This document shows, one piece after another, positions 1-63,368 of a DNA stretch of 64,000 bases. The stretch covers positions 3,776,001-3,840,000 of the forward strand of contig CBDASK010000003.1 in the NCBI GenBank assembly GCA_965199495.1. The letters are read 5' to 3'. How positions within the stretch are numbered: position 1 is the first letter of the stretch; the number at the start of each line of letters is the position of its first letter. The position numbers and the translations under genes were made by a program. The notes beneath the pieces are model-generated. The model worked only from the letters and a program-made list of their open reading frames with translations, had not been told where the DNA came from and searched no databases. This DNA is from Abditibacterium sp. GTDB lineage: Bacteria > Armatimonadota > Abditibacteriia > Abditibacteriales > Abditibacteriaceae.

Positions 1-353
1 AAATCCATCACCGCCAAGATGTTCTCGAACTTGTCAACCAAGGCAATCGAATCGCCAATGTTGAGCAATTCGGCTTCATCTTGCGTGACAGCCAAAGTAA
101 TCGGAATCGTCCACGGCAAACCGTTGGCGAGCCGTTTATTGACGACGACGTTATCGTAATCGGCGCGGCCCATGAAACCGCGCAACGGCGAAAACGCGCC
201 GTTGCCGATGAGTTCCAAATCGGACAAACGCCGGTCGGCCAGATGAATTTTGGTTAAAGTTTGCGCGCGTTGTCGCAACTCATCGGCGGCGTGGCTGCTA
301 ACAAAACGATTGACGAGTTGGCCGCCGTGCGGAGTAATTTCGGTCTGTAACAT
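1..353 (-). CDS. sat: Sulfate adenylyltransferase, N-terminal part (gene runs off the window start)
   Basis: Manual translation from ATG at 353: MLQTEITPHGGQLVNR...LSDLELIGNGAFSPLRGFM...RLANGLPWTIPITLAV, the typical Sat N-terminus. Confidence 0.92.
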   Translation of the reverse strand, partial: MLQTEITPHGGQLVNRFVSSHAADELRQRAQTLTKIHLADRRLSDLELIGNGAFSPLRGFMGRADYDNVVVNKRLANGLPWTIPITLAVTQDEAELLNIGDSIALVDKFENILAVMD

Positions 354-366
354 TTTTATAAGGGAC

Positions 367-462
367 AAGTGGCAAGGAACAGGGAACAAGGGGCGACAAA
401 GAAGCTGTTTTCGGAGAGCTAAATCGTAGACCTTGTCCCTTGTTCCCTGTTCCTTGCCACTT
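367..462. repeat. Inverted repeat built of heptamer-like units (GGAACAA/GGGACAA), family A copy 1
   Basis: 367-392 aagtggcaaggaacagggaacaaggg is the exact reverse complement of 437-462. Confidence 0.9.
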
Positions 463-955
463 AATTCAAAACCGCCAAACGTTGAATTCCGCGTTCGCGA
501 TAGGTGCGAATCGGCACGCCGTATTGTTCTTCCTGGCGGCGCAAAAGTTCGGCGAGCGTTAAGCCTTTCAACACGGTTTCGATGGCGGTTTGGAGTTCCT
601 GCCACACTTCCTGCACCGCGCACGAACCCGACGCGCCGCAACTCGCCGTGGCTGGTGATTTGGCGCCCGAATCTTCGCCCACACAAATCATCGGCTCGAA
701 GCCGCCTTCGAGCGCCACCAGGGCATCGTAAGCGGTAATATCTTCGGGCGCTTTGGCCAAGAAATAACCGCCCTGCGCGCCGCGTTTGCTTTTGATAAGT
801 CCGGCACTTTTGAGCGCGGGCACGATCTGTTCGAGATAATCGAGCGAAATCTGCTGGCGCTCCGCGATGTCGCGGAGCGAAAGCGATTGACCCTCGTCCA
901 TGCCCATCTCCATCAAAGCGCGCAACCCATATTCACCGCGTGTCGAAATTTTCAT
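461..955 (-). CDS. Rrf2-family transcriptional regulator (IscR/CymR-like)
   Basis: MKISTRGEYGLRALMEM...IAERQQISLDYLEQI...SKRGAQGGYFLA; three C-terminal Cys; directly upstream of sat. Confidence 0.92.
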   Translation of the reverse strand: MKISTRGEYGLRALMEMGMDEGQSLSLRDIAERQQISLDYLEQIVPALKSAGLIKSKRGAQGGYFLAKAPEDITAYDALVALEGGFEPMICVGEDSGAKSPATASCGASGSCAVQEVWQELQTAIETVLKGLTLAELLRRQEEQYGVPIRTYRERGIQRLAVLN

Positions 956-1042
956 ATCCTTAAGAGTAAACCCGAATCAATTCAACGGGTCGCCGCTTCG
1001 CCCGTTCCGCTCGCCCCCGCTTTTGGCGCGCCCTTTCTGCTT

Positions 1043-1384
1043 ATGACGCATTTCGTTTCCCCTCGATTAGACACCGCCGTGCAAGACCCCGAATCCGACG
1101 TTTTGACGATTCCCGAAATTATCCCCGACCTGGACGACGGCGACAGCAGCCACGGCGCCTTTCGCGTGATTCTCTACGACGACGATTGGCATCCGATTAA
1201 TCAGGTTATCGAGCAAGTGATGAAAGCCTGCGAGTGCGGCAAAATGAAAGCGATCAAAATCACGCTCGACGCCCATCGCAAAGGCCGCGCGGTTTGCTTT
1301 AAAGGCGGTCGCGGCAAATGCCACAAAGTCGCGCGCGTCTTGCGCGAAATTCGCTTGCAATGCGAAGTGGATTCGGACGATTAA
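1043..1384 (+). CDS. clpS: ATP-dependent Clp protease adaptor ClpS
   Basis: FRVILYDDDWHPINQVIEQV...AIKITLDAHRKGRAVC matches the ClpS core; start moved to ATG 1043. Confidence 0.8.
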   Translation: MTHFVSPRLDTAVQDPESDVLTIPEIIPDLDDGDSSHGAFRVILYDDDWHPINQVIEQVMKACECGKMKAIKITLDAHRKGRAVCFKGGRGKCHKVARVLREIRLQCEVDSDD

Positions 1385-1394
1385 CGTTTTCTTT

Positions 1395-1492: not shown

Positions 1493-1508
1493 CCTAAATT
1501 CAAAATTA

Positions 1509-2231: not shown

Positions 2232-2241
2232 CTCATTTGTT

Positions 2242-2793
2242 TTACGCGAAAATCTCGTCAACTTCCATCGCCCAGCCGGGCAACGCATCTCCGGCGTGGC
2301 TGCTGTCGCCGCGACGAAATATCTGCGGCGCCTGTCCCGGCAGATGCAGCGTGACGACGTTTTCGCCCAACAAATCTACGTCCCACACGGCGCGCGTGCC
2401 CGCCGCGAAATAATCCGCGATTTTCTGCGCGATGGCACGCTCGGCGGCGGGGCCGTAATCGTTTTCGCTGCGCACTTCGACGGCGAAAACTGGCGCGCCT
2501 TCGACAGCGCCCATTTTTCCGTCGCGCGGCCCAAGAATATATGCGGCGTCTGCACAAAACGATTTGCGGTTAGTTAAATCAACGCGAAAGGCCACGGTGC
2601 CGCCCAATGCGCGCCCGCTTTTGGTTCGGCGGGCGTAGCGGTCGAGCGCCATCAGAATTTCTGCTTTGGCCAACGCGGGCAAAAATCCGTCGGATTCTCC
2701 GCAAACGATTTCGCCATTGACGATTTCGGCTTTGCCGTCAATTTTCATCAATTGATCGAAAAGTTCATCGTCCTTTGCAGTGCGAATCGGCAT
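2242..2793 (-). CDS. Uma2-family (PD-(D/E)XK) endonuclease-like protein
   Basis: KAEIVNGEIV, ADAAY, APVFAVEVRS, KIADYFAAGTRAVWDVD, ALPGW. Confidence 0.88.
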   Translation of the reverse strand: MPIRTAKDDELFDQLMKIDGKAEIVNGEIVCGESDGFLPALAKAEILMALDRYARRTKSGRALGGTVAFRVDLTNRKSFCADAAYILGPRDGKMGAVEGAPVFAVEVRSENDYGPAAERAIAQKIADYFAAGTRAVWDVDLLGENVVTLHLPGQAPQIFRRGDSSHAGDALPGWAMEVDEIFA

Positions 2794-2819: not shown

Positions 2820-4214
2820 TTACTCAATCGTGAATGTGACCGTCGAAGAGACGGCGCGCGAGCCGTCGGGTTGAATCGCGATGAGTTGCGCGGTATGCTG
2901 ACCTTCGATGAGGCGTTCGCGCGGGACGGTGACGCGGAACGGTTGCGTGTTTTTAATCGCGATGGTTTGTCCGTCAACTTGCCAGATGAGGCCGCGCGTT
3001 TCCATGCCGAGCGGCAGTTGCGCCCACAGTTCCAGATCGCTGGTGATGACGTCGCCGTTTTTCAGGCCGCGCAGGAACGGTTCCGTTATCGTCGCGGCGA
3101 TGGCGCCGTTGGTCGCCAGAATATCTTCATCGTCGGGGCCGTGCAAAACCAAACCGTTATTGCCCAAGGTTGTGCCCGTTTTGTTGGGGGTTGCCCATTC
3201 GTTGGGATTGAAATAGACCTGACTCAAAAAATGCGGATCGGCGACCAACTGGCGATAGGTCGCGAGCATTCGGCCATCGGCGAGCAGCGAGTAATTGTTG
3301 TTGGCCAGCCCGGCGCTCACCGTATCGAAGGAAAGCCAGTTGACCGATTTAACGCGCGGATAATCGTCGCGCAGCGCCCCGTAAAAGCGCTTGGCCTTTT
3401 CGATGGCCCACTCGACGGTTTCGCTGCCGACGCCCTTGCACCAAATCGTGGCGGCGTATTCCGAAATATGAACCGGTTTACGGTCGCCATAAAGCGTGTA
3501 AACCTGCTTCAAAAAATCCACCGGGTCTTCGTTCATCGCGACCTGCGCCGGGTCGCCGTTGTGAACGTAAACCGAATAGATATTGACGCCGACCCAATCC
3601 ACCCATTCGTCGCCGGGATAAAAGTCGGGAATCAAGCGTTCGGGTTCGGCAAACGGCGTCCACACCATCGCCACGTTGGGCGCCTCTTCCTTCATCACGC
3701 GCGAGACGAGCGCGAACTTCTCTTTATAAAGCGCGATGTAATCGGTCGCCCCCGCGCCGTAACGCTTTTTGCCCCACTCGCCGTTCATCTCCGACGCCCA
3801 ACGCAGAAAGATCGGCTTTTTGGTGCGCGCCGCGTCGCGCGCCCACGCGCGCAAGTAAGCGTCATCTTTGACTTCCTGCAAACCATCGTTTGGCTCGAAC
3901 GCGATGTGCGGCGCGGCGCCGTTACGCGCGACTTTATTGAACCAATCGGCGGGAAACGGGCGCCCATAACCGACGTAGGTGAAGTAGGACGCGTGCTTTT
4001 TCTTGGTCAAATCTTCAAACGCCGGAATGTTGCCCTGAACGTTGGAATCGCGCTCGATGAACGCGCCGATATAGCAACCTTTGGCCGGTTCAAACTTGGC
4101 CAAGTTTCCCGGCGTGGCTGCTGCGCCAATGGCGGCGCGTGCCCTGCGCGGCAACGCGGCCAGAGCGGCAGCGGCGGCGGTCGAAGCGAGAAAAGCACGG
4201 CGAGTGTTCATCAT
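2820..4214 (-). CDS. Tat-exported glycoside hydrolase family 26-like protein with C-terminal Ig-like domain
   Basis: Twin-Arg signal NTRRAFL; FLRWASEMNGEW; FYPGDEWVDWVGVNIY; KPVHISEY. Confidence 0.85.
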   Translation of the reverse strand: MMNTRRAFLASTAAAAALAALPRRARAAIGAAATPGNLAKFEPAKGCYIGAFIERDSNVQGNIPAFEDLTKKKHASYFTYVGYGRPFPADWFNKVARNGAAPHIAFEPNDGLQEVKDDAYLRAWARDAARTKKPIFLRWASEMNGEWGKKRYGAGATDYIALYKEKFALVSRVMKEEAPNVAMVWTPFAEPERLIPDFYPGDEWVDWVGVNIYSVYVHNGDPAQVAMNEDPVDFLKQVYTLYGDRKPVHISEYAATIWCKGVGSETVEWAIEKAKRFYGALRDDYPRVKSVNWLSFDTVSAGLANNNYSLLADGRMLATYRQLVADPHFLSQVYFNPNEWATPNKTGTTLGNNGLVLHGPDDEDILATNGAIAATITEPFLRGLKNGDVITSDLELWAQLPLGMETRGLIWQVDGQTIAIKNTQPFRVTVPRERLIEGQHTAQLIAIQPDGSRAVSSTVTFTIE

Positions 4215-4396
4215 GTGGGCGCTTCGTTGGACGGTTGCGGGCGAAGCGGGTTGCTGTTGGGACGAGAAATCGAAACTCAGCAGGGAAATTGCGGCGCAAA
4301 AACGATTTTGCAAAGGTAAACTAAAACATTGCCAACGCTTAGTCCGGGTGAATCTTATCTGTTAAAATAATCGGGTTCTCCTACTGCTCAAAATTT

Positions 4397-6628
4397 ATGG
4401 CCGTTTCCTCTTCACCGCCTTCGCTTCACGCGCCTCCCTCCGAAACTCTCGTCGAAAAACCGATGGGCATTTCCCTGCGCGCCATCTTGCTTTCGTTGGG
4501 GCTGGCGTTTTTCTTCGGCTATATTATCCCGATTGTGGACATGAAAATGCGCAACACCTTTTTGGGTGCCACGCATCTGCCGCCGGGCGCCGTCGCCGTT
4601 CTGGTGATTTTGCTTTTGACGGTGAATCCGCTTTTGACGCTGATTTCGCGTCAAAAATCGCGCATCTCGTTGGTGTTTGGCGCGCTCATCGCCTTTGCCG
4701 CGCTGTCAGGATTTTTCTTTACGCGCGGAAATACGGGCAGCCTGTTATTCTGGCTGTTTGGCGCGGGCGCCGTGTTGATGCTATTGACGCTCGCGCTCAA
4801 TCTGGGCCGCCAACCGTTGTCGCGCAATGAGATTCTCACAGTTTATATTTCGTGTTTGTTTTCGACTTTGGCGCCCGGACACGGCGCCGAAAACGTGTTT
4901 GTCGTCAACTTGATTGGCCCATTTTATTACGCGACGCGCGAGAACAAATATCTCGATTTCATGGTGCCTTATATGAAACCGTGGATGACGCCAGCGATTG
5001 ATCCAGCCACCGGCGGTTACAGCGAGGCGCGCAAAGCGGTCATTGACGGTTGGTTCAACAATTCGGCGACGGGACAGGTGCCGTGGGGCGCGTGGCTGGT
5101 GCCGTTGTTGGTGTGGGGCAGCGCCATCGCGTTGATGTATCTCATGATGGCGTGTTTAAGCGTGATGATTCGCAAGCAGTGGGCGCAAAACGAGGCGCTG
5201 GCGTTTCCGCTTTTGCGCTTGCCGCTCGAACTGACCGAAGATGTATACAATGCTAACAACAGCGCGGTTATCGGCGGCTTTTTCCGCAATGGCCTGATGT
5301 GGATCGGGTTTGGCATCGCGGTTTTCATTCAGCTCTTGCGCGGGTTGCACGGCTATTTTCCCGATGTGCCCGATTTCCCGCTCAGCATTGATACCGCCCC
5401 GCTTTTCACCGAGGCGCCGTGGAACCAAATCGGCGGCGCGCCGGTTTTGGTGTGGCCGGTTATCGTGGGCATCACCTATCTGCTCACGGCGGAAATTTCG
5501 TTTTCGTTTTGGTTCTTTTTCTGGTTCATCAAGTTCCAACTCGTCGGCGCCTATTTGCTGGGTTACCCAACGGGCGCGTTGCCGCAACCGATTGGTGCCA
5601 TCGGCGGCAACTCCAAAGCGACTTTCACGTTTTATCAGGAAATTGGCTGTTATCTGGCCTACGTCGGCATCATCGTTTATACCGGGCGCGAGCATCTCAA
5701 ACATATCGTGCTGCGCGGATTGGGCCGCCGCCGCGCCGAGGCCGACGAGGCCAACGAAGCGATGAGTTATCCTCTGGCGTTCTGGGGTTTTGTGGTCTCG
5801 TTCGCGCTTTTGGTGGGTTGGAGCATCGCGGCGGGCCTGAGTCCGGTTTTGGCGTTTGGCATCTGGGCGCTTTATGTCGTCATTATTCTGGCGTTGACGC
5901 GCATCATCGCCGAGGCGGGCATTTTGTTCGTGCAGCAGGGCTGGGTTCCGCTCGGCACAATCGGCCAAATTTTTGGCGCCGGTCAGGGCCATTGGCTATT
6001 GGGCGCATCGTCGTTGCCCGCCGCCGCCACGATTCAGGGCGCCTTGATGACCGATTTGCGCGGATTTATCATGCCGTCGTTTATTCAGGGCTTTAAGTTG
6101 GCGCACGACCGCAAAATCGCGTTGCGCCCACTTTTGGTTTTGATGCTCGCCTGTTCGTTAATTACGATGGCAATGGGCGTTTACATGAACGTAAAGTTGG
6201 GTTACGGACAGGGTGGATTGTCGCTTGATGCTTGGTATGCGGGCGCGGCCTCGGAGATTCCCGCCAAGTCGAGCGCCAGTCTGATCAAAGGCGTAAAAGA
6301 CGCCAGCACTTGGAATTTGGTGTGGGTGGCGCTGGGCCTCGCTTTGACCTACGGCATGATGCTGGCGCGCTCGCGATTCGCTTGGTTTCCGCTCCATCCG
6401 ATTGGTCTGCTCATCGCGCAGACTTACCCGATTGCCGCCGTCTGGTTTTCAGTATTTCTGGGCTGGATGTTCAAAGTTCTCATCACCAAGTTTGGCGGCA
6501 CGGATTCCTATCGCAAAGGCGTGCCCTTGTTTTTGGGGCTGGCGCTGGGCGATGTGATGATGATGCTGTTCTGGCTGGTCATTGACGGCTGGCAGGGCAA
6601 AACCGGCCACAAACTCATGCCGGGATAA
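4397..6628 (+). CDS. Large polytopic membrane protein (DUF6785/DUF6784-like), paralog 1
   Basis: 743 aa with many hydrophobic spans; QWAQNEALAFPL, WFPLHPIG, FLGLALGD; strongly similar to 23498-25567. Family name is from recall. Confidence 0.75.
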   Translation: MAVSSSPPSLHAPPSETLVEKPMGISLRAILLSLGLAFFFGYIIPIVDMKMRNTFLGATHLPPGAVAVLVILLLTVNPLLTLISRQKSRISLVFGALIAFAALSGFFFTRGNTGSLLFWLFGAGAVLMLLTLALNLGRQPLSRNEILTVYISCLFSTLAPGHGAENVFVVNLIGPFYYATRENKYLDFMVPYMKPWMTPAIDPATGGYSEARKAVIDGWFNNSATGQVPWGAWLVPLLVWGSAIALMYLMMACLSVMIRKQWAQNEALAFPLLRLPLELTEDVYNANNSAVIGGFFRNGLMWIGFGIAVFIQLLRGLHGYFPDVPDFPLSIDTAPLFTEAPWNQIGGAPVLVWPVIVGITYLLTAEISFSFWFFFWFIKFQLVGAYLLGYPTGALPQPIGAIGGNSKATFTFYQEIGCYLAYVGIIVYTGREHLKHIVLRGLGRRRAEADEANEAMSYPLAFWGFVVSFALLVGWSIAAGLSPVLAFGIWALYVVIILALTRIIAEAGILFVQQGWVPLGTIGQIFGAGQGHWLLGASSLPAAATIQGALMTDLRGFIMPSFIQGFKLAHDRKIALRPLLVLMLACSLITMAMGVYMNVKLGYGQGGLSLDAWYAGAASEIPAKSSASLIKGVKDASTWNLVWVALGLALTYGMMLARSRFAWFPLHPIGLLIAQTYPIAAVWFSVFLGWMFKVLITKFGGTDSYRKGVPLFLGLALGDVMMMLFWLVIDGWQGKTGHKLMPG

Positions 6629-6957: not shown

Positions 6958-8010
6958 ATGAAACCCTTGCTTTTCGCTCTGGCCCTGACGGGTTTACCTC
7001 TTCTGAGCAGCACTTCGATCTCTTACGCCGCACCCAAACCTGCGACGGCTCCCGCAACTCCGCCCGCTCCCAAAGCGGGCGTGGCCCCGGCACCAGCCAC
7101 GGCGACGCCGAGCAATGGCGTGGCCGCCGATGTCAATGGCGACAAAATTATGTTGGCCGATCTCAACCGGCAAATTGACGACATCAAAGCAAGCGAGCCG
7201 TCGTTGCAGACCAACTCGGCGGACGCGACTCAGGCGCTTTCCAATATTCGCTCGCAGATGCTCGACGATTTGATCGTGCGCAAACTGCTCAGTCAGGAAG
7301 CGCGCCGCCGCAATATCACCACCAAACCCGCCGATGTGGATGCTTTAATTGAGCAAACCAAGAAGCAGTTCAAAACGCCCGCCGAATTTAATGCGTGGCT
7401 GGCTGACCGAGGCGTCAGTGCTGGCGAACTGCGCACTGTTTTGACGGAAGAAGTCTCGATGGACGAATTGACCGCGCAGATCACTTCGGACGTGACGGTT
7501 TCCGATGACGACATGGCTACTTACTATCGCGCTAACCCCGACCAATTTACCGTTCAACCCGCCGTGAAAGTCCGCCACATTCTGTTGGCCGTCAACCCTT
7601 CGGCCTCGGCTGCCGACAAAGAGGCCGTGCGCAAGCGCGCGCAAAATTTGGTCGCCCAACTCAAAAAAGGCGCCGACTTCGCCACGCTCGCTAAGAGCAA
7701 TTCCGATGACATCGGCACCAAAGACGATGGCGGTCTATTGCCGATCTTCGAGCGCGGTCGCATGGAAAAACCGTTTGAAGACGCGGCGTTTGGCGGCAAA
7801 AAAGGCGACATCGTTGGCCCCATCGAAACCGGTTATGGCATGCACATCATCAAAATCGAAGAAGTTTTGCCGCAGAAAATCATCGAATTGAAAGATGTGA
7901 AAGACGATCCGCGTTTGAAAGCCCTGATTCTGCGCGCTAAAAAGCAGGACAAGTTCGATGCGTTCGTCGCCGGATTAAAGGCGAGCGCGAAAATCAATAA
8001 GTATGTGTAA
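6958..8010 (+). CDS. Exported parvulin-type peptidyl-prolyl isomerase (PrsA/SurA-like)
   Basis: Signal peptide; VKVRHIL, GADFATLAKSNSDD, GGLL, PFEDAAF, GPIETGYGMHIIK. Confidence 0.92.
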   Translation: MKPLLFALALTGLPLLSSTSISYAAPKPATAPATPPAPKAGVAPAPATATPSNGVAADVNGDKIMLADLNRQIDDIKASEPSLQTNSADATQALSNIRSQMLDDLIVRKLLSQEARRRNITTKPADVDALIEQTKKQFKTPAEFNAWLADRGVSAGELRTVLTEEVSMDELTAQITSDVTVSDDDMATYYRANPDQFTVQPAVKVRHILLAVNPSASAADKEAVRKRAQNLVAQLKKGADFATLAKSNSDDIGTKDDGGLLPIFERGRMEKPFEDAAFGGKKGDIVGPIETGYGMHIIKIEEVLPQKIIELKDVKDDPRLKALILRAKKQDKFDAFVAGLKASAKINKYV

Positions 8011-8084: not shown

Positions 8085-9113
8085 CTACCGCGCCGCCAAC
8101 GAATGTCCAGCTTTGGCGCTTTGAACCGCCAAATCCAAAATCTGAATCGGGCGCCGCGCCAACTGCGCGTCAATAACCAGAGGCGCGCCGTCCACCAAAT
8201 GGTCGCGCACGTTTTCATAATAACGCTGGCCTTCATCGGCGGGATGCGCCATTTGCGTGACGGTAAATTTGCCGTCTTTGTGTTGGTAAAGTTTGGAATT
8301 CGGGCCGTCCAAGACCAGCGTGCCTTTGGTGCCGGTAATTTCGACCCAACCGTCTTTGCCTTTGCTGTCCACAGATGTCATCGAAAGCGTCAGCCACGGG
8401 CCATTTTCAAAGCGCGCCAAAACGAACGCCTCGTCTTCGTTGGCGTCGCCTTTCCACGCGGTTTGCGGCCCCCAATGCCCGTGAAACGCCACGCCGCTCA
8501 CTTCGCTCAAAGGCGCGTCAATCAATTGCAGCGAGTATTCGAGCAGATGCACGCCCCAGTCATATAAAATACCGCCCGAAATCGTGCGGCTGGTGCGCCA
8601 CCAATCGCCGGGTTTGCCGTAGCCGCCCATGTGACATTCGATGCGCACGATGTCGCCGATAATTTTCTGATTTTTGACCAACTCCACCGCCTGCAAAATG
8701 CGGCCATCCCAGTGGCGATTGTGATACGCCGAAATCATCGTATCGGACGCCGTGGCTGCTTCGATCATCGCGTCCACTTCTTCCAGAGTAATCGCGAGCG
8801 GTTTTTCCGAAACGACGTGACGCCCGGCACGCAGACATTGCAACGCGAGCGGTGCGTGCGTGTTGTGCGGCGTAATTAGCGTGACCAAATCTACGTCCGA
8901 ATTGGCGAGCATCTCTTCAACCGTGGCGTAAGTTTCGATGCCGGGAAAGTCTTGCGTTGCCACATCCAAACGCGCGGCGTCAAGTTCGACGACGGCAAGC
9001 GGCGTCATGCCCGCCGCTTGCATTTGCTTCAAATGTTGGCGACCCATATTGAAAGCGCCGCCATAACCCACGACGCCGACGCGAATATCGGCGGGAGAAG
9101 AATAATTTTTCAT
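8085..9113 (-). CDS. Gfo/Idh/MocA-family oxidoreductase
   Basis: VGVVGYG, ITPHNTH, HVVSEKP, YHNRHWD, GGILYDWGVH. Confidence 0.92.
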   Translation of the reverse strand: MKNYSSPADIRVGVVGYGGAFNMGRQHLKQMQAAGMTPLAVVELDAARLDVATQDFPGIETYATVEEMLANSDVDLVTLITPHNTHAPLALQCLRAGRHVVSEKPLAITLEEVDAMIEAATASDTMISAYHNRHWDGRILQAVELVKNQKIIGDIVRIECHMGGYGKPGDWWRTSRTISGGILYDWGVHLLEYSLQLIDAPLSEVSGVAFHGHWGPQTAWKGDANEDEAFVLARFENGPWLTLSMTSVDSKGKDGWVEITGTKGTLVLDGPNSKLYQHKDGKFTVTQMAHPADEGQRYYENVRDHLVDGAPLVIDAQLARRPIQILDLAVQSAKAGHSLAAR

Positions 9114-15247: not shown

Positions 15248-15634
15248 ATGGCAAGCGAAAAGATTCAAGGCATTCTCGACACCGTCGGTGGCCTCTCCGT
15301 TCTCGAACTCAACGAACTCGTTAAAGAATTGCAAGAGCAGTGGGGCGTCACCGCCGCCGTTGCTGGCCCCGCCGTGGCTGCGGCTGGCCCCGCCGAGGCC
15401 GCTCCCGCCGCCGAAGAGCAGACCGAATTCGACGTTATCTTGAAAGATGTCGGCGCTCAGAAGATTCAGGTCATCAAAGCGATCCGCGAAGTGCAGCCGA
15501 CCTTGGGCTTGAAAGAGGCCAAAGAAGTCGCCGACAACGCGCCCAAAGCCGTTGCCGAGGCCGTGACCAAAGAAGACGCCGAGAAAATGAAAGAGAAACT
15601 CGAAGCCGCCGGTGCGACTGTCGAACTCAAATAG
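15248..15634 (+). CDS. rplL: 50S ribosomal protein L7/L12
   Basis: [40 protein letters not shown]. Confidence 0.99.
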
Positions 15635-53500: not shown

Positions 53501-56500
53501 TGGACACGCTATTGGCCGCCGAAATCCTGACCGAAGGCGAGGCCGTCACCATCGCGCGCGCGCAAATGGAAGCGCCCGAACTGGGCATTTCGCAGATTAT
53601 TGATACGCAATTGCGCTTGCCCGCCGAGCGTCGTCGGCGTTTGGCCGAGGCGAAGTTGCAGGAAGTTCAGTCGGTTTTGGATCAGGGAATTAAGGCGCAC
53701 GCGTTGTTTGAATACAACGTGAATTACGTGATCGGCGGCGGCAAAGAGATCGTCATCGTGGACGAATTTACCGGGCGCACCATGCCGGGCCGCCGCTTTT
53801 CCGAAGGCTTGCATGAAGCTTTGGAAGCCAAGCACGGTCTGGAAGTGCAGATCGAATCGCAGACGGTGGCGACGATCACGATTCAGAATTATTTCCGGCT
53901 TTATAACAAAATTTCGGGCCTGACCGGAACCGCGAAAACCGAGGAAGCCGAGTTTGCCAAAACTTACGGCATCGAAGTCTTAACCGTGCCGACGAATAAA
54001 CCGGTGCGCCGCGTCGATCAGCCCGACGTGGTTTATAAAACCGCCGAGGCCAAACTGCGCTTCATCACGTTTGATATTCTGGAGCATCACTGCGTCGGCC
54101 AGCCGGTTCTGGTCGGCACGCGGTCAGTCGAAATGTCCGAGCGCATGGCGCAGCGATTGTCCGCTCCAGCGCTGCAAACTTTGGTTTTGACGCATTTAAT
54201 TAAGGAACATTTGCGCGCCGACAAATCGCCCGAAGCCGACAAAGCGCCACTGTGGGAGTTCGCGCGCGCGCCGATTACCAACATTAATCCGGTGCAGGCG
54301 AAGAATTTGGCCAAGCAGATGGGCATCAATCCCGACGCGGCCAGCGACGAAAATGTGAGCGCAATTCTAAGTCAGTTCACCGTGCCCAACGCCAGCCGCG
54401 AGCGTTTGGTGGCGGCTTTGAAACAGGGTTTGCCGCACAACGTTTTGAACGCCAAAAACCATCGCAACGAAGCGCGCATCATCGCCGAGGCCGCGCGGCC
54501 CGGCGCCGTCACCATCGCCACCAACATGGCGGGACGCGGTGTTGACATCATTCTGGGCGGCAGTCTGGACGGCGAAAGCCGTTGGCGCGTTTTGACCGAA
54601 CAATTGTTGGCGCGCCAGTTGGAAGGCAAAGGCGTTCATGTCCGTTCGGTCAACGCCGAGGCGACGCAGAAGATGGCGCAGCGATTGACGCCGGATAATT
54701 TGCAAACTCTGGCTTGGGCCGTCGCGATTTCGCGCCGTGTCGAGGAAATGGAGCGCGCGGGCACCCTCGAAGGTCAGGCGGCCAAAGAGATTAAAGATGC
54801 TTTGGGCAGCGACTTGACTTCGCCCGATTATGCCAACCGCGTAAGGTCGCGCGCGCGTCGCAATAATTTGTTGGACAAATTGCCGGTCGATTTAGAGCCG
54901 CTCAATCCGCAGATTGTTGGCGAGTTGGCGCTCGAATTGGGACGGATTATGAATCACCAATACGACGCCGAATCGTTGAACTTGATGCTGCAACACGGCG
55001 TTCCGGCGCAGGAACATCAATCGCAGGACGCGCAGTTGGGCCGCGATCCGGGCGAGTTGGCGTTGCTCTACACCTTAGCCACGCCGATGTCGTTCTCGCA
55101 AAATGCCAGCGAACGCTTGCTCGAAATCTTGGCCGAAGCGCCCGATTTGGATCGGCAATTGTTGGAACTCGTGGCGACCGGACAGATGCTCAAACCCGAA
55201 GCTCTGGCCGCGAACTTGGGCGTGGTCACGCCCGATTGGGTGCAGACGCGACTGGGCGAATTGGGCGTGCCCAACGCCGACGCGGCGGCGGATCGCTTAG
55301 GCGATTTGCCGCGCGACGAAGCCGAAATTACCGAATTTCAACTGGCGCAACAAATGGGCGAAGCGTTCATGGGGACGCCGTGGCTGCGTCAGCGACTGAG
55401 CGAATGGCAATTGGTTGAGGGCGCGCGCGCGTTTGAAGGAACGGAAGAAATGCAGAACGCGCTGCAAGATCAGGCGAACGTGCATTTGCGATTGAACCGC
55501 AAAGCGGCGTTGGCCAAGCGCGAGGAATGGAACTCGCCGCAAAGCCGCCGCGAGTTGGTGGCAGTCGAGGCGCCCAATTTGGTGTTGCTGCAAGAGTTGG
55601 CCGGAGTCGTCGGGCCGGAAGCGCCGATTTTGAATCCCGAATGGCTGCACCATACGTTGAGCGGCATGAACCTCATCACCGACGAAGACGTGATGCAGGC
55701 GCAGATGCAAGCGCAAGTGCAGGATGAAGAAGGCAACCAGAGCATCCAGCCGATTGACGTTTTGGTCTACCGTTTGAAGTTGAGCGGAATGCTCGAAGCG
55801 ATCAAACCGGTTGTGCGCGAGGCGGCGAAACAGGCCGATTCGCACGATCCAACGACGGTCTTTGGCGCGTTGCAGAATGTCGCGCCGTGGTTGCCGACGT
55901 TCGTGGACGACGAATGGTTGGCGCAGACTTTGGCCGAAACGCCGGAACTGGCGTTGCCGGAAGCGACAACGGAAGAGTTGGCGGTCGCCGGGGATTCGGG
56001 CATCGTGCAGATCGAGACCGGCGTGGCTGGTCAGAGCACCGACATCGTTTTGGAAAGCGAGGCGCGGCCCGAAGACATCGCGCACACCAGCGACCGCGAC
56101 ATTATCACCGATTTGGGCGGCTTGCACATCATCGGGTCGGAGCGTCACGAGAGCCGCCGCATTGACAACCAGTTGCGCGGGCGCGCCGGTCGCCAGGGCG
56201 ATCCGGGTTCGAGCCGCTTCTACATCTCATTGGATGACGAGCTGTGGCGTCTGTTCGGCACGCGCGGCCAATTCTTGTTGAAGAGTTGGGACGAGGACGA
56301 GCCAGTCGAGGCGGGCATCATTTCCAAGCAGATCGAGCGCGCGCAGAAGAAGGTCGAGCTGAACCACTTCGAGGGCCGCAAACACGTCTTGCAATACGAC
56401 GACGTGATGAACGTGCAACGCGAAGTCATCTACCGCGAACGCCGCCGCGCCTTGCAGGGCGCTGATATCCGCGACACGGTCGTTGATATGGCGCAAAAAG

Positions 56501-57545: not shown

Positions 57546-58358
57546 ATGAACTTCTCTCCAATCATAGGCGCTTCGAGCTGGGCGCTGCACTCTGAACTGG
57601 GCGCGCCGCCGATTTTTGGTGTCGAGGCGGGCGCGACGATTCCGCGCTTTGCGCCTTCAAACGCGCGGTTTTCCCTGCTCGAAATGCCCGATTTTCTGGC
57701 GCAGAATGGCTTCGATACCATGCAAATTTGCCATTTCCATTTGCCCTGGCGCGACGAATCGTATTTGGCCGATTTGTGCGCGGCCATCGAAAATTCGGGC
57801 GTGTCGCTGCACGCGCTTCTGGTGGACGAAGGCGATTTGACGCATCCGCAATTTGGCGCGCGCGATGAAAAATGGATCGGCGATTGGTTGCCCGTGGCTG
57901 CTCAGTTGGGCGCGCGCACTCTGCGCGTCATCGCCGGAAAAACTAACGGGCAGGACGCATTGGAGCGTAGCGCATCGGCCCTGCTACGCCTTTGCGAGCG
58001 CGCCGAGAAGTGGGGCGTGCAAATTCAAACCGAAAATTGGTTCGCGCTCTTGAACTCGCCCGACGCCGTTGACGAATTGCTCGCTCGCTGCGAAAACCGC
58101 GTTGGTTTTCTGCTCGATTTTTCCAATTGGAGCGACGCACAACATTTGCAAAACCTCGCGCGAATCGCGCCGCACGCCGCCGCCACGCACGCGCAGGCGA
58201 AATTCTTGGGGCCAGCACAAATTGACGGAACCGAGTTCGCGGCGTGTTTGAATTTGCCTTATGCGCGCGATTTTCGTGGCCCGTTTGTGTTTGTTAATGG
58301 AGGTGCGGACGGAATTTTGACTTTGCGTGATTTCGTGCGCGCCCATTTCGATTGCTAA
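57546..58358 (+). CDS. Sugar phosphate isomerase/epimerase (TIM-barrel family)
   Basis: AAQLGARTLRV, TENW, LDFSNW, THA. Confidence 0.8.
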   Translation: MNFSPIIGASSWALHSELGAPPIFGVEAGATIPRFAPSNARFSLLEMPDFLAQNGFDTMQICHFHLPWRDESYLADLCAAIENSGVSLHALLVDEGDLTHPQFGARDEKWIGDWLPVAAQLGARTLRVIAGKTNGQDALERSASALLRLCERAEKWGVQIQTENWFALLNSPDAVDELLARCENRVGFLLDFSNWSDAQHLQNLARIAPHAAATHAQAKFLGPAQIDGTEFAACLNLPYARDFRGPFVFVNGGADGILTLRDFVRAHFDC

Positions 58359-58479
58359 GTGATGCCTCTTCCCGCGATTCAAGTTCACGCGGACAGCCAC
58401 GGCCCACGGATACGCTGCGAAATGGGCGCGCCCGACGAGCGGAAATCGTTTCGTGGACATCACTTTTAGCGGCATGCCG

Positions 58480-59444: not shown

Positions 59445-59455
59445 TTGCAATCATA

Positions 59456-59487: not shown

Positions 59488-59551
59488 TCGTTGCGCGTCA
59501 TTCTCCGCACTCGGTCGGCGTGGCTGCATTGGAGGCCACGCGTCACCGACA

Positions 59552-60499
59552 TCAGCTTACATTATCCAGCGCGTTGCGCAATACGCCCGCCGATTTTTTC
59601 AACGCTTCGATTTCGCCTTCGTCCAAGGGCAACGGCAGCGTTTTTGTCGCGCCGTTACGGTTGACGATTGTCGGCATGCCAAACGAAACGCCGCTGATGC
59701 CATACATATCAATGGCGTGGCCGACCGGCAAAACCGCATTTTCGTCGCGCACGATGGCTTTGACGACTTCGACCAAACCGGCGCCAATCGCGTAATACGT
59801 CGCGCCTTTGCGCTCGATGATATGATACGCCGCATCGCGCGTGCGCCCGAAAATATCGTCTTTAATCGCGGGCGTCAGCTCGACGTTCATCGCGTCGCAA
59901 TAGGTTTGGAGCGGCACGCCGCCCACCGTCACGCAACTCCAGGCGGGCACGGAACTGTCGCCGTGTTCGCCTATGATAAACGCGCTCACGCTCTGAGCAG
60001 CCACGCCGACGTGATCGCCGATGAAATGACGAAAGCGCGCGGTGTCCAAAATCGTGCCCGATCCGAAAACGCGGCCCGGCGCCATTTTCGCGTAATCGGC
60101 GGAAATCTGCGTTAAAACGTCCACGGGATTGGTGGCGATGATAATCAAACCGTTGGGATTATTTTGGGTGATGGACGGAATAATCTGACCGAAAATCCCG
60201 GCGTTCTTGCGGCCCAACTCCAAACGCGATTCGCCCGGCTTCTGGTTGGCGCCCGCCGTGACGACCGTGACGGCGCAACCGGCCAAGGCATCGTAATCGC
60301 CCGCGCTGACTTTAACTGCGTGGGCGAAAGGCGCGCTGTGCGCCAAATCCATCGCTTCGCCCTGCGCCTTGTCGGCGTTGGCGTCCACCAAAACAAGTTC
60401 GGAAGCCAATCCGCTCAGCGTCAGAGCGTAAGCGAACGAAGCGCCCACGTTGCCAGCGCCCACGACGGCGATTTTGCGGGGAGTGTAGGAATTATTCAT
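59552..60499 (-). CDS. ldh: L-lactate dehydrogenase
   Basis: GAGNVG, QKPGESRLEL, NPVD, GTILDTARF, GEHGDS, KGATYYAIG. Confidence 0.95.
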   Translation of the reverse strand: MNNSYTPRKIAVVGAGNVGASFAYALTLSGLASELVLVDANADKAQGEAMDLAHSAPFAHAVKVSAGDYDALAGCAVTVVTAGANQKPGESRLELGRKNAGIFGQIIPSITQNNPNGLIIIATNPVDVLTQISADYAKMAPGRVFGSGTILDTARFRHFIGDHVGVAAQSVSAFIIGEHGDSSVPAWSCVTVGGVPLQTYCDAMNVELTPAIKDDIFGRTRDAAYHIIERKGATYYAIGAGLVEVVKAIVRDENAVLPVGHAIDMYGISGVSFGMPTIVNRNGATKTLPLPLDEGEIEALKKSAGVLRNALDNVS

Positions 60500-60575: not shown

Positions 60576-61826
60576 ATGATAATCGAACCATTTTCTTTTG
60601 GCGTTGGCGACCGTTTCGCCCATCAAGCCGCCGCGCAACTGCGCGCTTTCGAGTTGCTTGCGGTGCAGGGCGTTGAAGTCGTGCCCGTCTGGAACAAATC
60701 GCATCGTGAACACACAACGATTGGCTCCAAACCGCAATCGCTGCGCGATGCCGCTGATGCCGCCGTCGCCAAATTAGGTTGGGACAAACCGTATTACGTG
60801 GATGCCGATCATATTCGCCTCGAAACCGTGGACGAATTTATTCCGAGCGCCAACTTTTTCACGCTCGATGTCGCCGATTTCATCGGCGGCGCGATTGATG
60901 ATAAAACCGTCGAAAGTTTTCTCAATGCCCATCCCGAATTGATTGGCACCATCGAAATCGCGGGCATTGAAACGCCATTTGAGACCACACGCGCGCAAAT
61001 TAAACAATGGGCCACCAAGTATCTGCCCGCCGTGGCTGGTGCGGGCGCGATTTACCATCGCATCGCCGAGAAAAAGGGCGCCGAAAATTTCGTCACCGAA
61101 GTTTCGATGGACGAAACCGACGCGCCGCAAACGCCGCCCGAACTTCTGGTGATTTTGGCCGCGCTGGGCCACGCGCAAATTCCCCTGCAAACCATCGCGC
61201 CCAAATTTAGCGGCAGATTCAACAAAGGCGTCGATTATGTCGGCGACATCGCGCAGTTCGAGCGCGAATTCGGCGACGATTTATGTGTCATTCAACACGC
61301 GATTCCGCGTTACGGTTTGCCATCGAATTTAAAGTTAAGCGTGCATTCGGGCAGCGATAAATTTTCGATTTATGCGCCGATTCGCCGCCAGTTGGGCAAA
61401 CATCACGCGGGTTTGCACATCAAGACGGCGGGCACGACATGGCTCGAAGAAGTGATTGGTCTGGCGATTTCGGGCGATGAAGGTCTGCAAATCGCGCGCG
61501 ATATTTATCGCAAAGCCCTCGCGAAACAGGAGGAGCTGTGCGCGCCTTACGCGACGGTGATTGACATTGATGCCGGCAAACTTCCCGATGCCGAAACGGT
61601 TGACAATTGGAGCGGCGAAGAGTTCGCGGCGGCGCTACGCCATGTGCAAAGCGAACCGCGTTACAATCCGAGCCTACGCCAGTTGATTCACGTCGGCTAC
61701 AAAATCGCCGCGCAAATGGGTGCGCGCTACACCGATGCGCTGGAAAATAACGCCGAAATCGTTGGCAATTGCGTGACGGAAAATCTGTTCGAGCGGCACA
61801 TGAAACCGCTCTTTCTGGGCGAGTAA
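60576..61826 (+). CDS. uxaE: Tagaturonate/fructuronate epimerase
   Basis: SFGVGDRF, DADH, EVSMDET, FNKGVDY, SVHSGSDKF, HIKTAGTTWLE. Confidence 0.92.
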   Translation: MIIEPFSFGVGDRFAHQAAAQLRAFELLAVQGVEVVPVWNKSHREHTTIGSKPQSLRDAADAAVAKLGWDKPYYVDADHIRLETVDEFIPSANFFTLDVADFIGGAIDDKTVESFLNAHPELIGTIEIAGIETPFETTRAQIKQWATKYLPAVAGAGAIYHRIAEKKGAENFVTEVSMDETDAPQTPPELLVILAALGHAQIPLQTIAPKFSGRFNKGVDYVGDIAQFEREFGDDLCVIQHAIPRYGLPSNLKLSVHSGSDKFSIYAPIRRQLGKHHAGLHIKTAGTTWLEEVIGLAISGDEGLQIARDIYRKALAKQEELCAPYATVIDIDAGKLPDAETVDNWSGEEFAAALRHVQSEPRYNPSLRQLIHVGYKIAAQMGARYTDALENNAEIVGNCVTENLFERHMKPLFLGE

Positions 61827-61830
61827 AATC

Positions 61831-61922
61831 AAGGTTTGGAGTAGGCACGTAAGTGCCTGATAAGTGCGAGATGCCTCAATTTTGATTGGTTCTGAGGCAC
61901 TCACGTGCCTACTCCAAACCTT
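61831..61922. repeat. REP-doublet-like inverted repeat, family H
   Basis: 28-bp arms at 61831-61858 and 61895-61922 (one mismatch); each arm is GTAG overlapping the palindrome aggcac-N4-gtgcct. Confidence 0.88.
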
Positions 61923-61961
61923 CTGGTCGCAAACTTCGCCTTTCTGTGAGAACCAAAAATT

Positions 61962-63368
61962 ATGTCTTTCATCCATGCCGATTTTCTGCTGCAAACTCAA
62001 GCCGCGCACCGACTGTTTCACGATTACGCGCAAGCCGAGCCGATTCTCGATTACCATAATCATCTGCCGCCGCGCGACATTGCCAATGACCGTCAATTCG
62101 CCAATTTGCACGAGATTTGGCTCGAAGGCGATCATTACAAATGGCGCGCAATGAGAGCGGCGGGCGTAGATGAAGAGTTCATCACCGGAGCAGCCACGCC
62201 GCGCGACAAGTTCATGGCGTGGGCGCGCGTCGTGCCTAAAACCTTGCGCAATCCGCTTTATCATTGGACGCATTTGGAACTCAAACGCTATTTTGATATT
62301 GACGAGTTACTGGACGAAAATAGCGCGCAACGCATCTGGGACAACGCCAACGAACAGTTGGCGTTGCCCGAAAATAGCGCGCGTGGTCTACTCAAAAAGT
62401 TCGATGTGCGCGCGCTTTGCACGACTGATGATCCCGCCGATGATTTAAATTATCATCGTCAAATCGCCGATTCAGATTGCGAAACGCGGGTTTATCCGAC
62501 GTTTCGGCCCGACAAATCAATGGCGATTGATGATTACGAATCGCTCAAAACTTGGATGGCGAAGTTGGGACAAACTTGTGGGCGCGAAGTCAAAAATTTC
62601 GCGGATATAATTGATGCGCTGGAAAAGCGTCACGACGATTTTCACGCGATTGGCGGACGATTATCTGATCATGGTTTAACGCATTTGCCGACGCAATTCG
62701 CCGACGAACGCGACGCCGAAAACACGTTCTGGAACGCGGAATATAGCGGCCCAAGCCGCGAAGAACGCGAACGTTTCACCGGATTCATGATGCAGTTTTT
62801 CGGCGAGTTGGACGCGAAAAAAGGTTGGACGAAACAGTTGCATCTGGGCGCGCGCCGCAACAACAACGCCGCGATGTTCGAGCGGTTGGGTGCCGATACC
62901 GGTTACGATTCGATTGGCGATTGGCCGCAAATCGAAGGTTTGGGCGCCTACTTCAGCAAACTCAGCGAGAACGATTTGTTGCCGCAAACTATCGTTTACA
63001 ACTTAAATCCCGCCGATAATTACGCCGTGGCTACCATGCTGGGCAACTTCGCGGGCGGCGGCAAAGCGGGCAAAATGCAAATGGGTTCGGGCTGGTGGTT
63101 TTTGGATCAAAAAGAAGCGATGGAATGGCAAATCAACGCGTTATCGAACGTCGGATTGTTGTCGCAATTCGTCGGAATGCTAACCGATTCGCGCTCGTTT
63201 ATGAGCTTTCCTCGCCACGAATATTTCCGCCGCGTCTTGTGCAATTTGGTCGGGCGCGACATGGAAGATGGACTTTTGCCCGGTGATTACGAGTTGGTCG
63301 GCGGCATGATTCGTAACATTTGTTATGCCAATGCGCGCGATTATTTGGGATTGGAAGTAGGGAGTTAA
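61962..63368 (+). CDS. uxaC: Glucuronate isomerase
   Basis: PILDYHNHL, DHYKWRAMR, NPLYHWTHLEL, WWFLD, GMLTDSRSF. Confidence 0.97.
   Translation: MSFIHADFLLQTQAAHRLFHDYAQAEPILDYHNHLPPRDIANDRQFANLHEIWLEGDHYKWRAMRAAGVDEEFITGAATPRDKFMAWARVVPKTLRNPLYHWTHLELKRYFDIDELLDENSAQRIWDNANEQLALPENSARGLLKKFDVRALCTTDDPADDLNYHRQIADSDCETRVYPTFRPDKSMAIDDYESLKTWMAKLGQTCGREVKNFADIIDALEKRHDDFHAIGGRLSDHGLTHLPTQFADERDAENTFWNAEYSGPSREERERFTGFMMQFFGELDAKKGWTKQLHLGARRNNNAAMFERLGADTGYDSIGDWPQIEGLGAYFSKLSENDLLPQTIVYNLNPADNYAVATMLGNFAGGGKAGKMQMGSGWWFLDQKEAMEWQINALSNVGLLSQFVGMLTDSRSFMSFPRHEYFRRVLCNLVGRDMEDGLLPGDYELVGGMIRNICYANARDYLGLEVGS

What the first reader, a model, noticed from the sequence alone, without database searches (positions are those of the whole stretch)
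290..62198. Window-wide non-palindromic motif CGTGGCTG(CT): candidate undescribed DNA uptake/Chi/HIP-like signal
Seen: at least 42 exact CGTGGCTG copies by eye. 23 are on + (290, 647, 2295, 4113, 5091, 7394, 8751, 9777, 15373, 19184, 21010, 22334, 25103, 25808, 29745, 40076, 41683, 43260, 55379, 56022, 57893, 59519, 61031) and 19 on - (CAGCCACG at 1147, 7094, 8391, 13966, 19956, 27489, 30566, 31724, 34173, 35322, 38945, 39952, 45803, 47691, 51095, 52859, 58394, 59998, 62191). Thirteen extend to the 10-mer CGTGGCTGCT, and there are many one-off variants (CGTGGCTAC, GGTGGCTG). A rough independent-base expectation at ~58% GC is 3-4 octamers and ~0.2 decamers. Copies sit inside genes, including rplA, rplL and secA, in different frames and orientations (encoding SSH, AAT, VAA, AWL, QPR), which argues against a peptide or codon cause. 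Known: Neisseria DUS, Pasteurellaceae USS and cyanobacterial HIP1 are similarly embedded in coding DNA at high density, whereas Chi and KOPS are usually strand-skewed. Inference: a lineage-specific signal for DNA uptake, recombination, methylation or a nucleoid protein; orientations are interleaved with no obvious skew.
Basis: partly seen in the sequence, partly recalled or inferred. Interest (0 to 1): 0.85.

Follow-up and report, generated by a model that had tools for sequence, protein, structure and literature searches.

The report
Strand-tiled DNA word in Abditibacterium
One small branch of Abditibacterium bacteria has written an 11-letter DNA word about once every 1.5 kb into its genes, evenly spaced along each strand separately, the same pattern shown by the DNA-uptake tags of Haemophilus-like bacteria, but the protein that reads it and its job are still untested.

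Summary
Confirmed: all 42 CGTGGCTG copies are where stated (1.98 expected). The genome, an Abditibacterium, holds 3,091; the full word is CG[CGA]CGTGGCTG(C)(T/A). It survives synonymous-codon, context and dicodon shuffles (2,827 versus 213-756), uses all six frames, shifts protein sequence, is scarce on the two small contigs and in a prophage, and shows no replichore skew. It is enriched in 3 of 251 phylum genomes searched, one clade, with a shifted dialect in one. Added here: same-orientation copies avoid each other out to 1-1.5 kb (138 pairs versus 473 expected at 30-500 bp), opposite ones do not (444). Pasteurellaceae-type uptake sequences show the same asymmetry (21 versus 45), and of four toy models only strand-specific ones reproduce it. 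Canonical Chi is excluded: no AddA/RecB. Best reading: an uptake-sequence-like self tag with a strand-specific step (0.5); main rival an intracellular strand-specific repair signal (0.25). No reader was found; uptake is untested. The scan earlier noted similar words in other bacteria and phages, not this word or lineage.

The parts
290..297 (+). core CGTGGCTG, 11-mer form; antisense in a gene that runs off the window start (SSH)
647..654 (+). core, 11-mer form; antisense in ORF 461-955
1147..1154 (-). core, 11-mer form; antisense in ORF 1079-1384 (SSH)
2295..2302 (+). core, 11-mer form; antisense in ORF 2242-2793 (SSH)
4113..4120 (+). core, 11-mer form; outside my gene call (2820-4103) but inside the longer ORF 2820-4313, so possibly coding
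5091..5098 (+). core; sense in ORF 4463-6628 (AWL)
7094..7101 (-). core, 11-mer form; antisense in ORF 6958-8010
7394..7401 (+). core; sense in ORF 6958-8010 (AWL)
8391..8398 (-). core; sense in ORF 8085-9113 (PWL)
8751..8758 (+). core, 11-mer form; antisense in ORF 8085-9113 (AAT)
9777..9784 (+). core, 11-mer form; antisense in ORF 9192-10976
13966..13973 (-). core, 11-mer form; antisense in rplA (AAT)
15373..15380 (+). core, 11-mer form; sense in rplL (VAA)
19184..19191 (+). core, 11-mer form; antisense in ORF 18493-19359 (QPR)
19956..19963 (-). core; antisense in ORF 19492-20424 (DSH)
21010..21017 (+). core, 11-mer form; sense in ORF 20492-21217 (DVAA)
22334..22341 (+). core; outside my gene call (21389-22252) but inside the longer ORF 21389-22447, so possibly coding
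25103..25110 (+). core; antisense in ORF 23498-25567
25808..25815 (+). core, 11-mer form; antisense in ORF 25652-26866 (AAT)
27489..27496 (-). core; antisense in ORF 27017-28024
29745..29752 (+). core, 11-mer form; sense in ORF 29641-31806 (DVAA)
30566..30573 (-). core, 11-mer form; antisense in ORF 29641-31806 (AAT)
31724..31731 (-). core; antisense in ORF 29641-31806
34173..34180 (-). core, 11-mer form; sense in ORF 33541-34335 (AVAA)
35322..35329 (-). core, 11-mer form; sense in ORF 35200-35952 (GVAG)
38945..38952 (-). core only; inside an IS982-like transposase gene (38680-39444)
39952..39959 (-). core; antisense in ORF 39576-40157 (AAT)
40076..40083 (+). core; sense in ORF 39576-40157 (VAA); 124 bp from the opposite-orientation copy at 39952
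41683..41690 (+). core; sense in ORF 41079-41774 (TWL)
43260..43267 (+). core, 11-mer form; antisense in ORF 42742-43713 (ASH)
45803..45810 (-). core, 11-mer form; antisense in ORF 45670-46983
47691..47698 (-). core, 11-mer form; sense in ORF 47566-48696 (AVAA)
51095..51102 (-). core, 11-mer form; antisense in secA (AAT)
52859..52866 (-). core; antisense in secA (AAT)
55379..55386 (+). core, 11-mer form; sense in secA (PWL)
56022..56029 (+). core, 11-mer form; sense in secA (GVAG)
57893..57900 (+). core; sense in ORF 57684-58358 (PVAA)
58394..58401 (-). core; intergenic
59519..59526 (+). core, 11-mer form; intergenic in my gene calls
59998..60005 (-). core, 11-mer form; sense in ORF 59552-60499 (GVAA)
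61031..61038 (+). core, 11-mer form; sense in ORF 60576-61826 (AVAG)
62191..62198 (-). core, 11-mer form; antisense in ORF 61962-63368 (AAT)

Best explanation
The word CG[CGA]CGTGGCTG(C)(T/A) is a clade-specific self-DNA tag that works like the uptake sequences of Neisseriaceae (DUS) and Pasteurellaceae (USS). Shown: it is real, genome-wide, independent of protein coding, arises and is lost site by site, is graded (near-matches take part), and each strand is tiled on its own with an exclusion zone of about 1-1.5 kb. Inferred: a factor of the type IV pilus/ComEC transformation pathway prefers DNA that carries the word; fragments with a new copy are taken up or survive more often and replace their motif-less alleles by recombination (molecular drive). 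Because a copy helps only the strand on which it is read, a new copy gains little near an existing copy of the same orientation and is unaffected by copies of the other orientation. The reading protein is not identified.
For: Density 0.65/kb with equal orientations (1525/1558) and no replichore or block skew (leading fraction 51.4-52.0%; chi2/df 0.61-0.69), as described for DUS/USS (PMC2817400 passages; PMC1939737 passages). Scarce in the most atypical-codon decile (0.43 versus 0.67-0.80/kb), on contigs C1 and C2 (2 in 24.7 kb, 6 in 64.6 kb), in a prophage (0.29/kb) and absent from 16S and 23S rDNA. Frame bias and peptide imprint (DVAA 1.67 versus 0.09 per 10,000 aa in motif-less relatives; motif codons 74.8% versus flanks 83.0% amino-acid identity to G004), as reported for USS/DUS. 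Excess of close inverted pairs (77 versus 29 at under 30 bp; 24 intergenic dyads of the 7-mer CGTGGCT). A dialect with the same core in G004, in genes and in intergenic dyads, at about the same total density (0.70/kb). Same-orientation exclusion also in a USS control (21 same versus 45 opposite pairs at 30-500 bp, about 60 expected each, p = 0.004; Fisher test against G000 p = 0.17). Transformation genes present: ComEC, ComEA, DprA, ComM, ComF-like, pilB/T/C/D and minor pilins.
Against: No uptake experiment exists. The same competence genes occur in motif-less relatives (ComEC 27 of 27 family genomes), so their presence does not discriminate. No basic minor pilin stands out (net charges -13 to -1 in G000) and none of 16 proteins compared, ComEC, ComEA and pilins among them, shows clear clade-specific acceleration. 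Unlike USS (0.55/kb coding, 2.6/kb non-coding), G000 has more copies in genes than between them (0.71 versus 0.31/kb). Opposite-orientation pairs are at 0.94 of expectation in G000 but 0.75 in USS, and the G000 zone is 2-3 times longer, which fits a both-strands-needed intracellular function equally well. In 400 kb of G004 the orientation specificity was not resolved (35 same, 42 opposite, 81 expected each at 100-1,000 bp). Passages of PMC1939737 state that H. influenzae uptake does not depend on USS orientation.
Confidence: 0.5

Rival explanations
1. Intracellular, strand- or direction-specific genome-maintenance signal: a symmetric Chi-like stop or loading site for a non-canonical resection or restart enzyme. 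Two-ended breaks anywhere would need a site in each direction within a few kb, giving independent tiling of both strands without replichore skew. Candidate reader: the 1,421-aa PD-(D/E)XK nuclease plus SF1 helicase at G000:C3:4111365-4115630.
For: The 'both strands needed' toy model gives opposite-pair ratios near 1 as in G000. The three motif genomes have a single UvrD-family gene and no AddA, while each of the 10 other genus genomes has 2-4 matches (AddB plus AddA read directly in G009 and G012; no AddAB in G000 by tblastn). Within the genus the 1,421-aa protein was found only in G000, G004 and (partial) G011.
Against: One clade is one evolutionary event, so any clade-specific gene correlates. 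The 1,421-aa protein also occurs in G016 and G017, which lack this word, and resembles defence helicase-nucleases (PADLOC MkoA/DpdJ parts). Nine family genomes outside the genus also have a single UvrD-family match and lack this word. USS, a proven uptake signal, shows the same asymmetry, so the asymmetry needs no intracellular reader.
Confidence: 0.25
2. Primase or primosome start sites spaced like Okazaki fragments.
For: Strand-specific, with a length scale of 1-3 kb; an earlier scan note proposed this for a viral word (e1-6050300).
Against: Single dnaA and a parS-like cluster near 2.03-2.16 Mb suggest one origin, yet both strands are tiled equally everywhere; a lagging-strand signal should be skewed. 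One DnaG per genome with no clade-specific acceleration. Contigs C1 and C2 nearly lack the word. GC skew is weak, so replication direction is not firmly known.
Confidence: 0.07
3. HIP1-like: a methyltransferase marks part of the word on one strand and a repair or transformation bias ratchets it up.
For: HIP1 is also coding-embedded and evenly spread (PMC5861425 passages) and raises transformation when methylated (PMC13756078 passages). Four other family genomes carry evenly spaced palindromic words. G000 has many methyltransferases.
Against: The word is non-palindromic, 11-13 bp with graded flanks, longer than usual methylase sites (own knowledge). No methyltransferase is both shared by and confined to the three genomes among the five compared; the best candidate, a 1,040-aa type IIG enzyme, matches 18 of 27 family genomes and is in pieces in G004. 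Type III enzymes were not searched.
Confidence: 0.1
4. Crossover or cleavage site of a site-specific recombinase or single-strand nuclease (integron integrase, RAYT, Ssn); close direct repeats are purged because they cause deletions.
For: Would explain loss of close direct but not inverted pairs.
Against: Does not explain why 3,091 copies arose. G004 has no integrase over the cut-off, the G000 integrase has no cassette array and no attC cluster, Y1 transposase loci are not flanked by motif-bearing REPs beyond background, IS ends lack the word, and G004 keeps tandem direct copies 18-24 bp apart.
Confidence: 0.05
5. Codon, peptide or compositional artefact.
For: Two frames hold 73% of coding copies; sixth-order Markov expectation is 87% of the count.
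Against: 4- to 13-fold above all codon-preserving controls, 9- to 47-fold for the 11-mer; near-absent in 10 congeners; the 9 most self-avoiding of 621 abundant 8-mers are all pieces of the word while the median word clusters (1.27).
Confidence: 0.01

Closest known systems
Uptake signal sequence (USS) of Pasteurellaceae
   Same: Non-palindromic, about one per 1.2-1.5 kb, both orientations equal, frame-biased inside genes, peptide imprint, low in recently acquired DNA (PMC2817400, PMC7811141 passages); close inverted pairs; same-orientation exclusion in my control. A weak second element (S-G at +15/+16, one helical turn from the core) recalls USS flanks.
   Different: Unrelated sequence; different phylum; G000 copies are denser in genes than between them; exclusion zone 1-1.5 kb versus about 0.5 kb; uptake not shown; reader unknown.
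DNA uptake sequence (DUS) of Neisseriaceae and its dialects, read by ComP
   Same: 10-12 bp, thousands of copies, species dialects with a kept core (PMC3630211 passages); our word shares GCCGT and contains CTG, the functional DUS core; G004 forms intergenic inverted pairs.
   Different: Two extra bases separate GCCGT from CTG and the conserved final A is missing, so the likeness may be chance; no ComP_DUS match (no positive control); confined to one three-genome clade.
HIP1 of cyanobacteria
   Same: Coding-embedded, evenly distributed, selection on distribution rather than on single sites (PMC5861425 passages); linked to transformation (PMC13756078 passages).
   Different: HIP1 is an 8-bp palindrome with cognate methylases; this word is asymmetric, longer, has strand-specific spacing and no cognate methylase was found.
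Chi sites of RecBCD/AddAB (recalled from own knowledge)
   Same: Asymmetric octamer read in one orientation.
   Different: No RecB/AddA in the clade, no leading-strand skew, much stronger enrichment.

Membership tests
DUS/USS uptake sequences | DNA carrying the word is taken up or transforms preferentially | not testable with these tools
   Needs an uptake or transformation assay.
DUS/USS uptake sequences | Hundreds to thousands of non-palindromic copies, both orientations equal, no replichore skew | tested here: met
   3,091 copies; 1525/1558; leading fraction 51.4-52.0%
DUS/USS uptake sequences | More even spacing than random | tested here: met
   Per-strand gaps under 500 bp 4.4-4.5% versus 15% expected; same signature as USS control
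DUS/USS uptake sequences | Under-represented in recently acquired DNA and rRNA | tested here: met
   0.08-0.09/kb on C1 and C2, 0.43/kb in atypical genes; 0.29/kb in a prophage, none in 16S/23S
DUS/USS uptake sequences | Arises by point mutation, biased frames, imprint on proteome | tested here: met
   42 of 159 sites kept in G004 orthologs, most others 1-3 mismatches away; frames; peptides
DUS/USS uptake sequences | Enriched in non-coding DNA as terminator-like inverted pairs | tested here: inconclusive
   Not met in G000 (0.31 non-coding versus 0.71 coding; 24 dyads); met in G004 (1.56 versus 0.47/kb)
DUS/USS uptake sequences | Natural-competence machinery present | tested here: met
   ComEC, ComEA, DprA (by motif), ComM, ComF-like (below curated cut-off), type IV pilus; also in motif-less relatives
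Neisseriaceae DUS | ComP minor-pilin receptor | tested here: inconclusive
   PF16732 matched 0 of 5 genomes, but also none of the 14 controls
Chi (RecBCD/AddAB) | Cognate RecB or AddA helicase-nuclease | tested here: not met
   One UvrD-family gene in each of G000, G004, G011; G009/G012 AddA and AddB fragments find only UvrD in G000
Chi/KOPS | Skew with replication direction | tested here: not met
   p = 0.03-0.13 for a 51-52% leading fraction at three assumed origins; strands better balanced than binomial at 10-250 kb
HIP1 | Palindromic octamer | tested here: not met
   Asymmetric matrix
HIP1 | Cognate methyltransferase and methylated site | tested here: inconclusive
   No clade-confined enzyme among five genomes for PF00145, PF01555, PF02384; methylation cannot be read here
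REP/REPIN or IS-derived repeat | Intergenic copies spread by duplication with shared flanks | tested here: not met
   2,827 of 3,091 in coding DNA with unrelated flanks; the G004 intergenic form is REP-like but the same dialect also lies in genes
Integron attC core | Integrase in all carriers and cassette array with the word | tested here: not met
   IntI in 2 of 3 carriers; no array beside it

The most novel reading that the evidence does not exclude
The word is a strand-specific chromosomal lattice signal, and the per-strand exclusion seen here and in USS reveals a step, not described in the papers I could search, in which such words are read on one strand or in one direction. In this clade, which lost AddAB, the lattice may serve an intracellular resection or restart enzyme (a symmetric Chi substitute) and not uptake at all. 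Abditibacteriaceae would then be a family that repeatedly invents such words, asymmetric in one clade and palindromic in others.
Probability: 0.25. Interest if true: 0.9.

Novelty: new variant of a known kind. Interest (0 to 1): 0.72.

Why it matters
Proven sequence-specific uptake tags are known from two proteobacterial families, with HIP1 as a possible third. A fourth, in a distant phylum, confined to one young clade with motif-less sister species and a dialect shift, would be a natural experiment on how such tags start and drift. The orientation-specific spacing gives a simple genome-only test that separates direction-blind from strand-specific readers, and it also applies to USS, where uptake has been reported as orientation-independent.

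Tried and rejected
Codon or peptide cause: rejected. Site-level conservation: not found; 42 of 159 sites (26%) kept in G004 against 27.6% for all 8-mers, rank 593 of 695; only the rare xCA codon was better kept inside the word (13 of 38 versus 36 of 262). Replichore skew: none. Canonical Chi: no enzyme. Methyltransferases: none confined to the clade; type IIG enzyme at C3:368041 rejected. Integron, RAYT and IS-end links: rejected. Receptor hunt: pilins of 21 loci compared, none basic or clade-unique; relative-rate test on DnaG, ComEC, ComEA, UvrD, eight pilus proteins and four ribosomal-operon proteins gave clade branch ratios 0.28-0.78 with ribosomal proteins spanning 0.33-0.78. A first G011 spacing count (1 same, 9 opposite under 1 kb) used a position list that one search showed may be incomplete, so I rely on G011 loci instead (3 same, 10 opposite; 31 sites in 56.8 kb). 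G004 did not resolve orientation specificity. The USS control stayed at 388 kb; no Neisseria DUS or E. coli Chi control was run. The toy models are single runs with hand-set parameters and show only which logic can give the pattern. Literature searches for the word, for Armatimonad- plus uptake sequence, and for orientation-specific spacing gave nothing relevant (listings only); Karlin et al. 1996 is not held and, from memory, already reported USS+ and USS- as each evenly spaced. No structure prediction, protein-database search or read mapping was done.

Full report
1. Observation. The search returned exactly the 42 copies listed, against 1.98 expected. The window is part of a 4.72-Mb contig of a 4.81-Mb genome. 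Its RplA is 79-83% identical to records labelled Abditibacterium, and the genome groups with them in a tree. Genome-wide there are 3,091 copies; Markov expectations are 436, 1,428 and 2,692 at orders 4, 5 and 6. Flank profiles extend the word to C-G-[CGA]-C-G-T-G-G-C-T-G-(C)-(T/A): the 12-mer CGCCGTGGCTGC occurs 690 times, and single changes at G4, T5 or G7 leave 2-4 copies in all, while the last two positions are soft. A weak S-G preference at +15/+16 persists in both main frames (KL 0.16-0.18 bits).

2. Not a coding artefact. Using my own gene calls (3,966 genes), 2,827 copies are coding. Synonymous shuffles give 213-257, shuffles conditioned on neighbouring residues 682-756, dicodon simulation 678-708 (two replicates each); the 11-mer is 1,930 against 41-227. 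All six frames are used. The word bends proteins: DVAA is 1.67 per 10,000 residues against 0.09 (n = 1) in 113,000 residues of motif-less relatives, and motif codons are 74.8% identical to G004 orthologs against 83.0% for flanks.

3. Distribution. Strands are equal (1525/1558), with a leading fraction of 51.4-52.0% for three assumed origins and better than binomial balance in 10- to 250-kb bins. Density falls in the most atypical-codon decile, on contigs C1 and C2, in a prophage and a low-GC island (0.29 and 0.32/kb), and there is no copy in 16S or 23S rDNA.

4. Same-orientation pairs 30-500 bp apart number 138 and opposite pairs 444, with 473 expected for each (p = 2e-38); at 500-1,000 bp 333 versus 532, at 1,000-1,500 bp 439 versus 550, at 1,500-2,500 bp 1,052 versus 1,071. 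It holds within genes (sense-sense 267 of 493 expected, antisense-antisense 131 of 299, mixed 836 of 766) and extends to most near-matches, which are excluded by perfect copies of the same orientation only; a change at G6 abolishes this. Of 621 abundant 8-mers the nine most self-avoiding are all pieces of the word, and the median word clusters. Inverted pairs under 30 bp are in excess (77 versus 29). G011 loci agree on small numbers (3 same, 10 opposite); 400 kb of G004 show exclusion but do not separate the classes. The window alone is too short to show it.

5. What logic gives this. In four toy drive models an orientation-blind reader depleted all pair classes, a reader importing DNA in one direction depleted convergent pairs most, and only the two strand-specific models depleted same-orientation pairs alone (single runs). 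As a control I found six USS-rich genomes among 401 and read 388 kb: 313 sites, 21 same versus 45 opposite pairs at 30-500 bp with about 60 expected each (p = 0.004), and 24 close inverted pairs versus 3.8. A proven uptake signal thus carries the same signature over a shorter range.

6. Relatives. The word is enriched in 3 of 13 genus genomes and 3 of 251 phylum genomes: G000 2,113, G011 1,776 and G004 720 copies of the 11-mer against 23-32 for the reversed control; a few others show small excesses of at most about 40 copies. The three form one clade (100/100). In 210 G000/G004 ortholog pairs only 42 of 159 sites are kept, no more than for 8-mers in general, and G004 has 94: density is conserved, position is not. 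G004 prefers (G/C)(G/A)ACGTGGCTG(G/C)TGTC, in genes (0.47/kb) and in intergenic inverted pairs (1.56/kb), with a total of 0.70/kb. Four other family genomes carry different, evenly spaced GTAC-containing words at 0.65-1.0/kb; none was evident in 40-80 kb samples of ten others.

7. Candidate machinery. G000 has ComEC, ComEA, DprA, ComM, a ComF-like gene and a type IV pilus operon with four pilins and a duplicated large tip protein. So do motif-less relatives, and no component shows clade-specific change. ComP was not found but the search had no positive control. The clade lacks AddAB, which G009 and G012 have, and within the genus only it has a 1,421-aa nuclease-helicase, which also occurs in two motif-less genomes of other genera. 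No methyltransferase, integrase or Y1 transposase tracks the word.

8. Mechanism. Most likely (0.5) the word is a self tag favoured at a strand-specific step of natural transformation and spread by drive. The steps real, coding-independent, point-mutational, graded and strand-tiled are shown; the link to uptake is inferred from the match to USS/DUS properties and the USS control. The main rival (0.25) is an intracellular direction-specific repair signal in a clade without AddAB. Priming (0.07), methylation ratchet (0.1) and recombinase site (0.05) fit less well.

9. Known systems and novelty. It works like USS/DUS but membership cannot be claimed: preferential uptake is untested, the receptor unknown, and G000 lacks the non-coding enrichment. 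It fails defining tests for Chi and HIP1. Papers seen as search passages only: PMC1939737, PMC2817400, PMC7811141, PMC5861425, PMC13756078, 10.1101/2025.10.24.684340 (76), PMC11893778, PMC3630211; PMC12616744 as abstract start (49). Searches for the word, the lineage and orientation-specific spacing found no report, but most subscription papers are not held, and from memory Karlin et al. 1996 described each USS orientation as evenly spaced. Earlier scan notes describe comparable words in other bacteria and strand-tiled words in phages; none concerns this word or lineage, and I did not check their claims. Verdict: real and strong, a new variant of a known kind, interest 0.72.

Noticed in passing
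G020 (L230, L231, L278-L281), G024 (L008), G022 (L228, L229, L297): Palindromic HIP-like word GAGTACTC (ATCGAGTACTCGAT in G020/G024) at 0.8-1.0 per kb, evenly spaced (CV 0.61-0.64), in genes (0.7/kb) and between them.
   Followed up: partly
G017 (L226, L227, L266-L277) and G014 (L232, L233, L282-L285): Mostly intergenic long palindromes: TCGACCGTACT as inverted pairs in G017 (181 sites in 280 kb, CV 0.49) and TGCAAGTACTTGCA in G014; terminator- or DUS-dyad-like.
   Followed up: partly
L002, L004, L081, L082 (G001, G008): Repeated asymmetric word TCCACAAAAAATGAA, often as inverted pairs.
   Followed up: no
G000 genome-wide and relatives: Extreme avoidance of CG-centred hexamer palindromes (TTCGAA 176 versus 7,515 expected; also GCCGGC, CGGCCG, CTCGAG, CCGCGG, CGATCG), largely shared across the family.
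   Followed up: no
window 50599-57243: SecA of 2,214 aa with very large insertions between the conserved SecA blocks.
   Followed up: no
G000:C3:1860977-1862480 and near 1815000: 16S and 23S rRNA genes are unlinked, about 46 kb apart and on opposite strands.
   Followed up: no
G000:C3, e.g. 25287, 83237, 283112, 2766480: Other repeats: about 140 GTCATTTCGAG elements resembling Ssn-related motifs (only 15 match the published pattern), two GTAG-type REP families, and a CRISPR array of about 130 repeats.
   Followed up: no
G000:C3:872853-876728 and downstream (L286): The large type IV pilus tip protein is duplicated (52% identical) in G000 and G004; G022 and G041 also have two copies.
   Followed up: partly
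G000:C3:4211984-4212883: Integron integrase without a cassette array, next to a prophage at about 4.217-4.262 Mb that carries queuosine-pathway-like genes (names by eye).
   Followed up: partly
window 38680-39444: IS982-like element, one of several copies, each with one core copy of the word.
   Followed up: no
G012 (L363; C1:1341240): ComEA (62-aa frame) and ComEC (558-aa frame) look truncated in this motif-less genome.
   Followed up: no
L088 (G004:C1): Contig made largely of a tandem repeat with about 107 copies.
   Followed up: no
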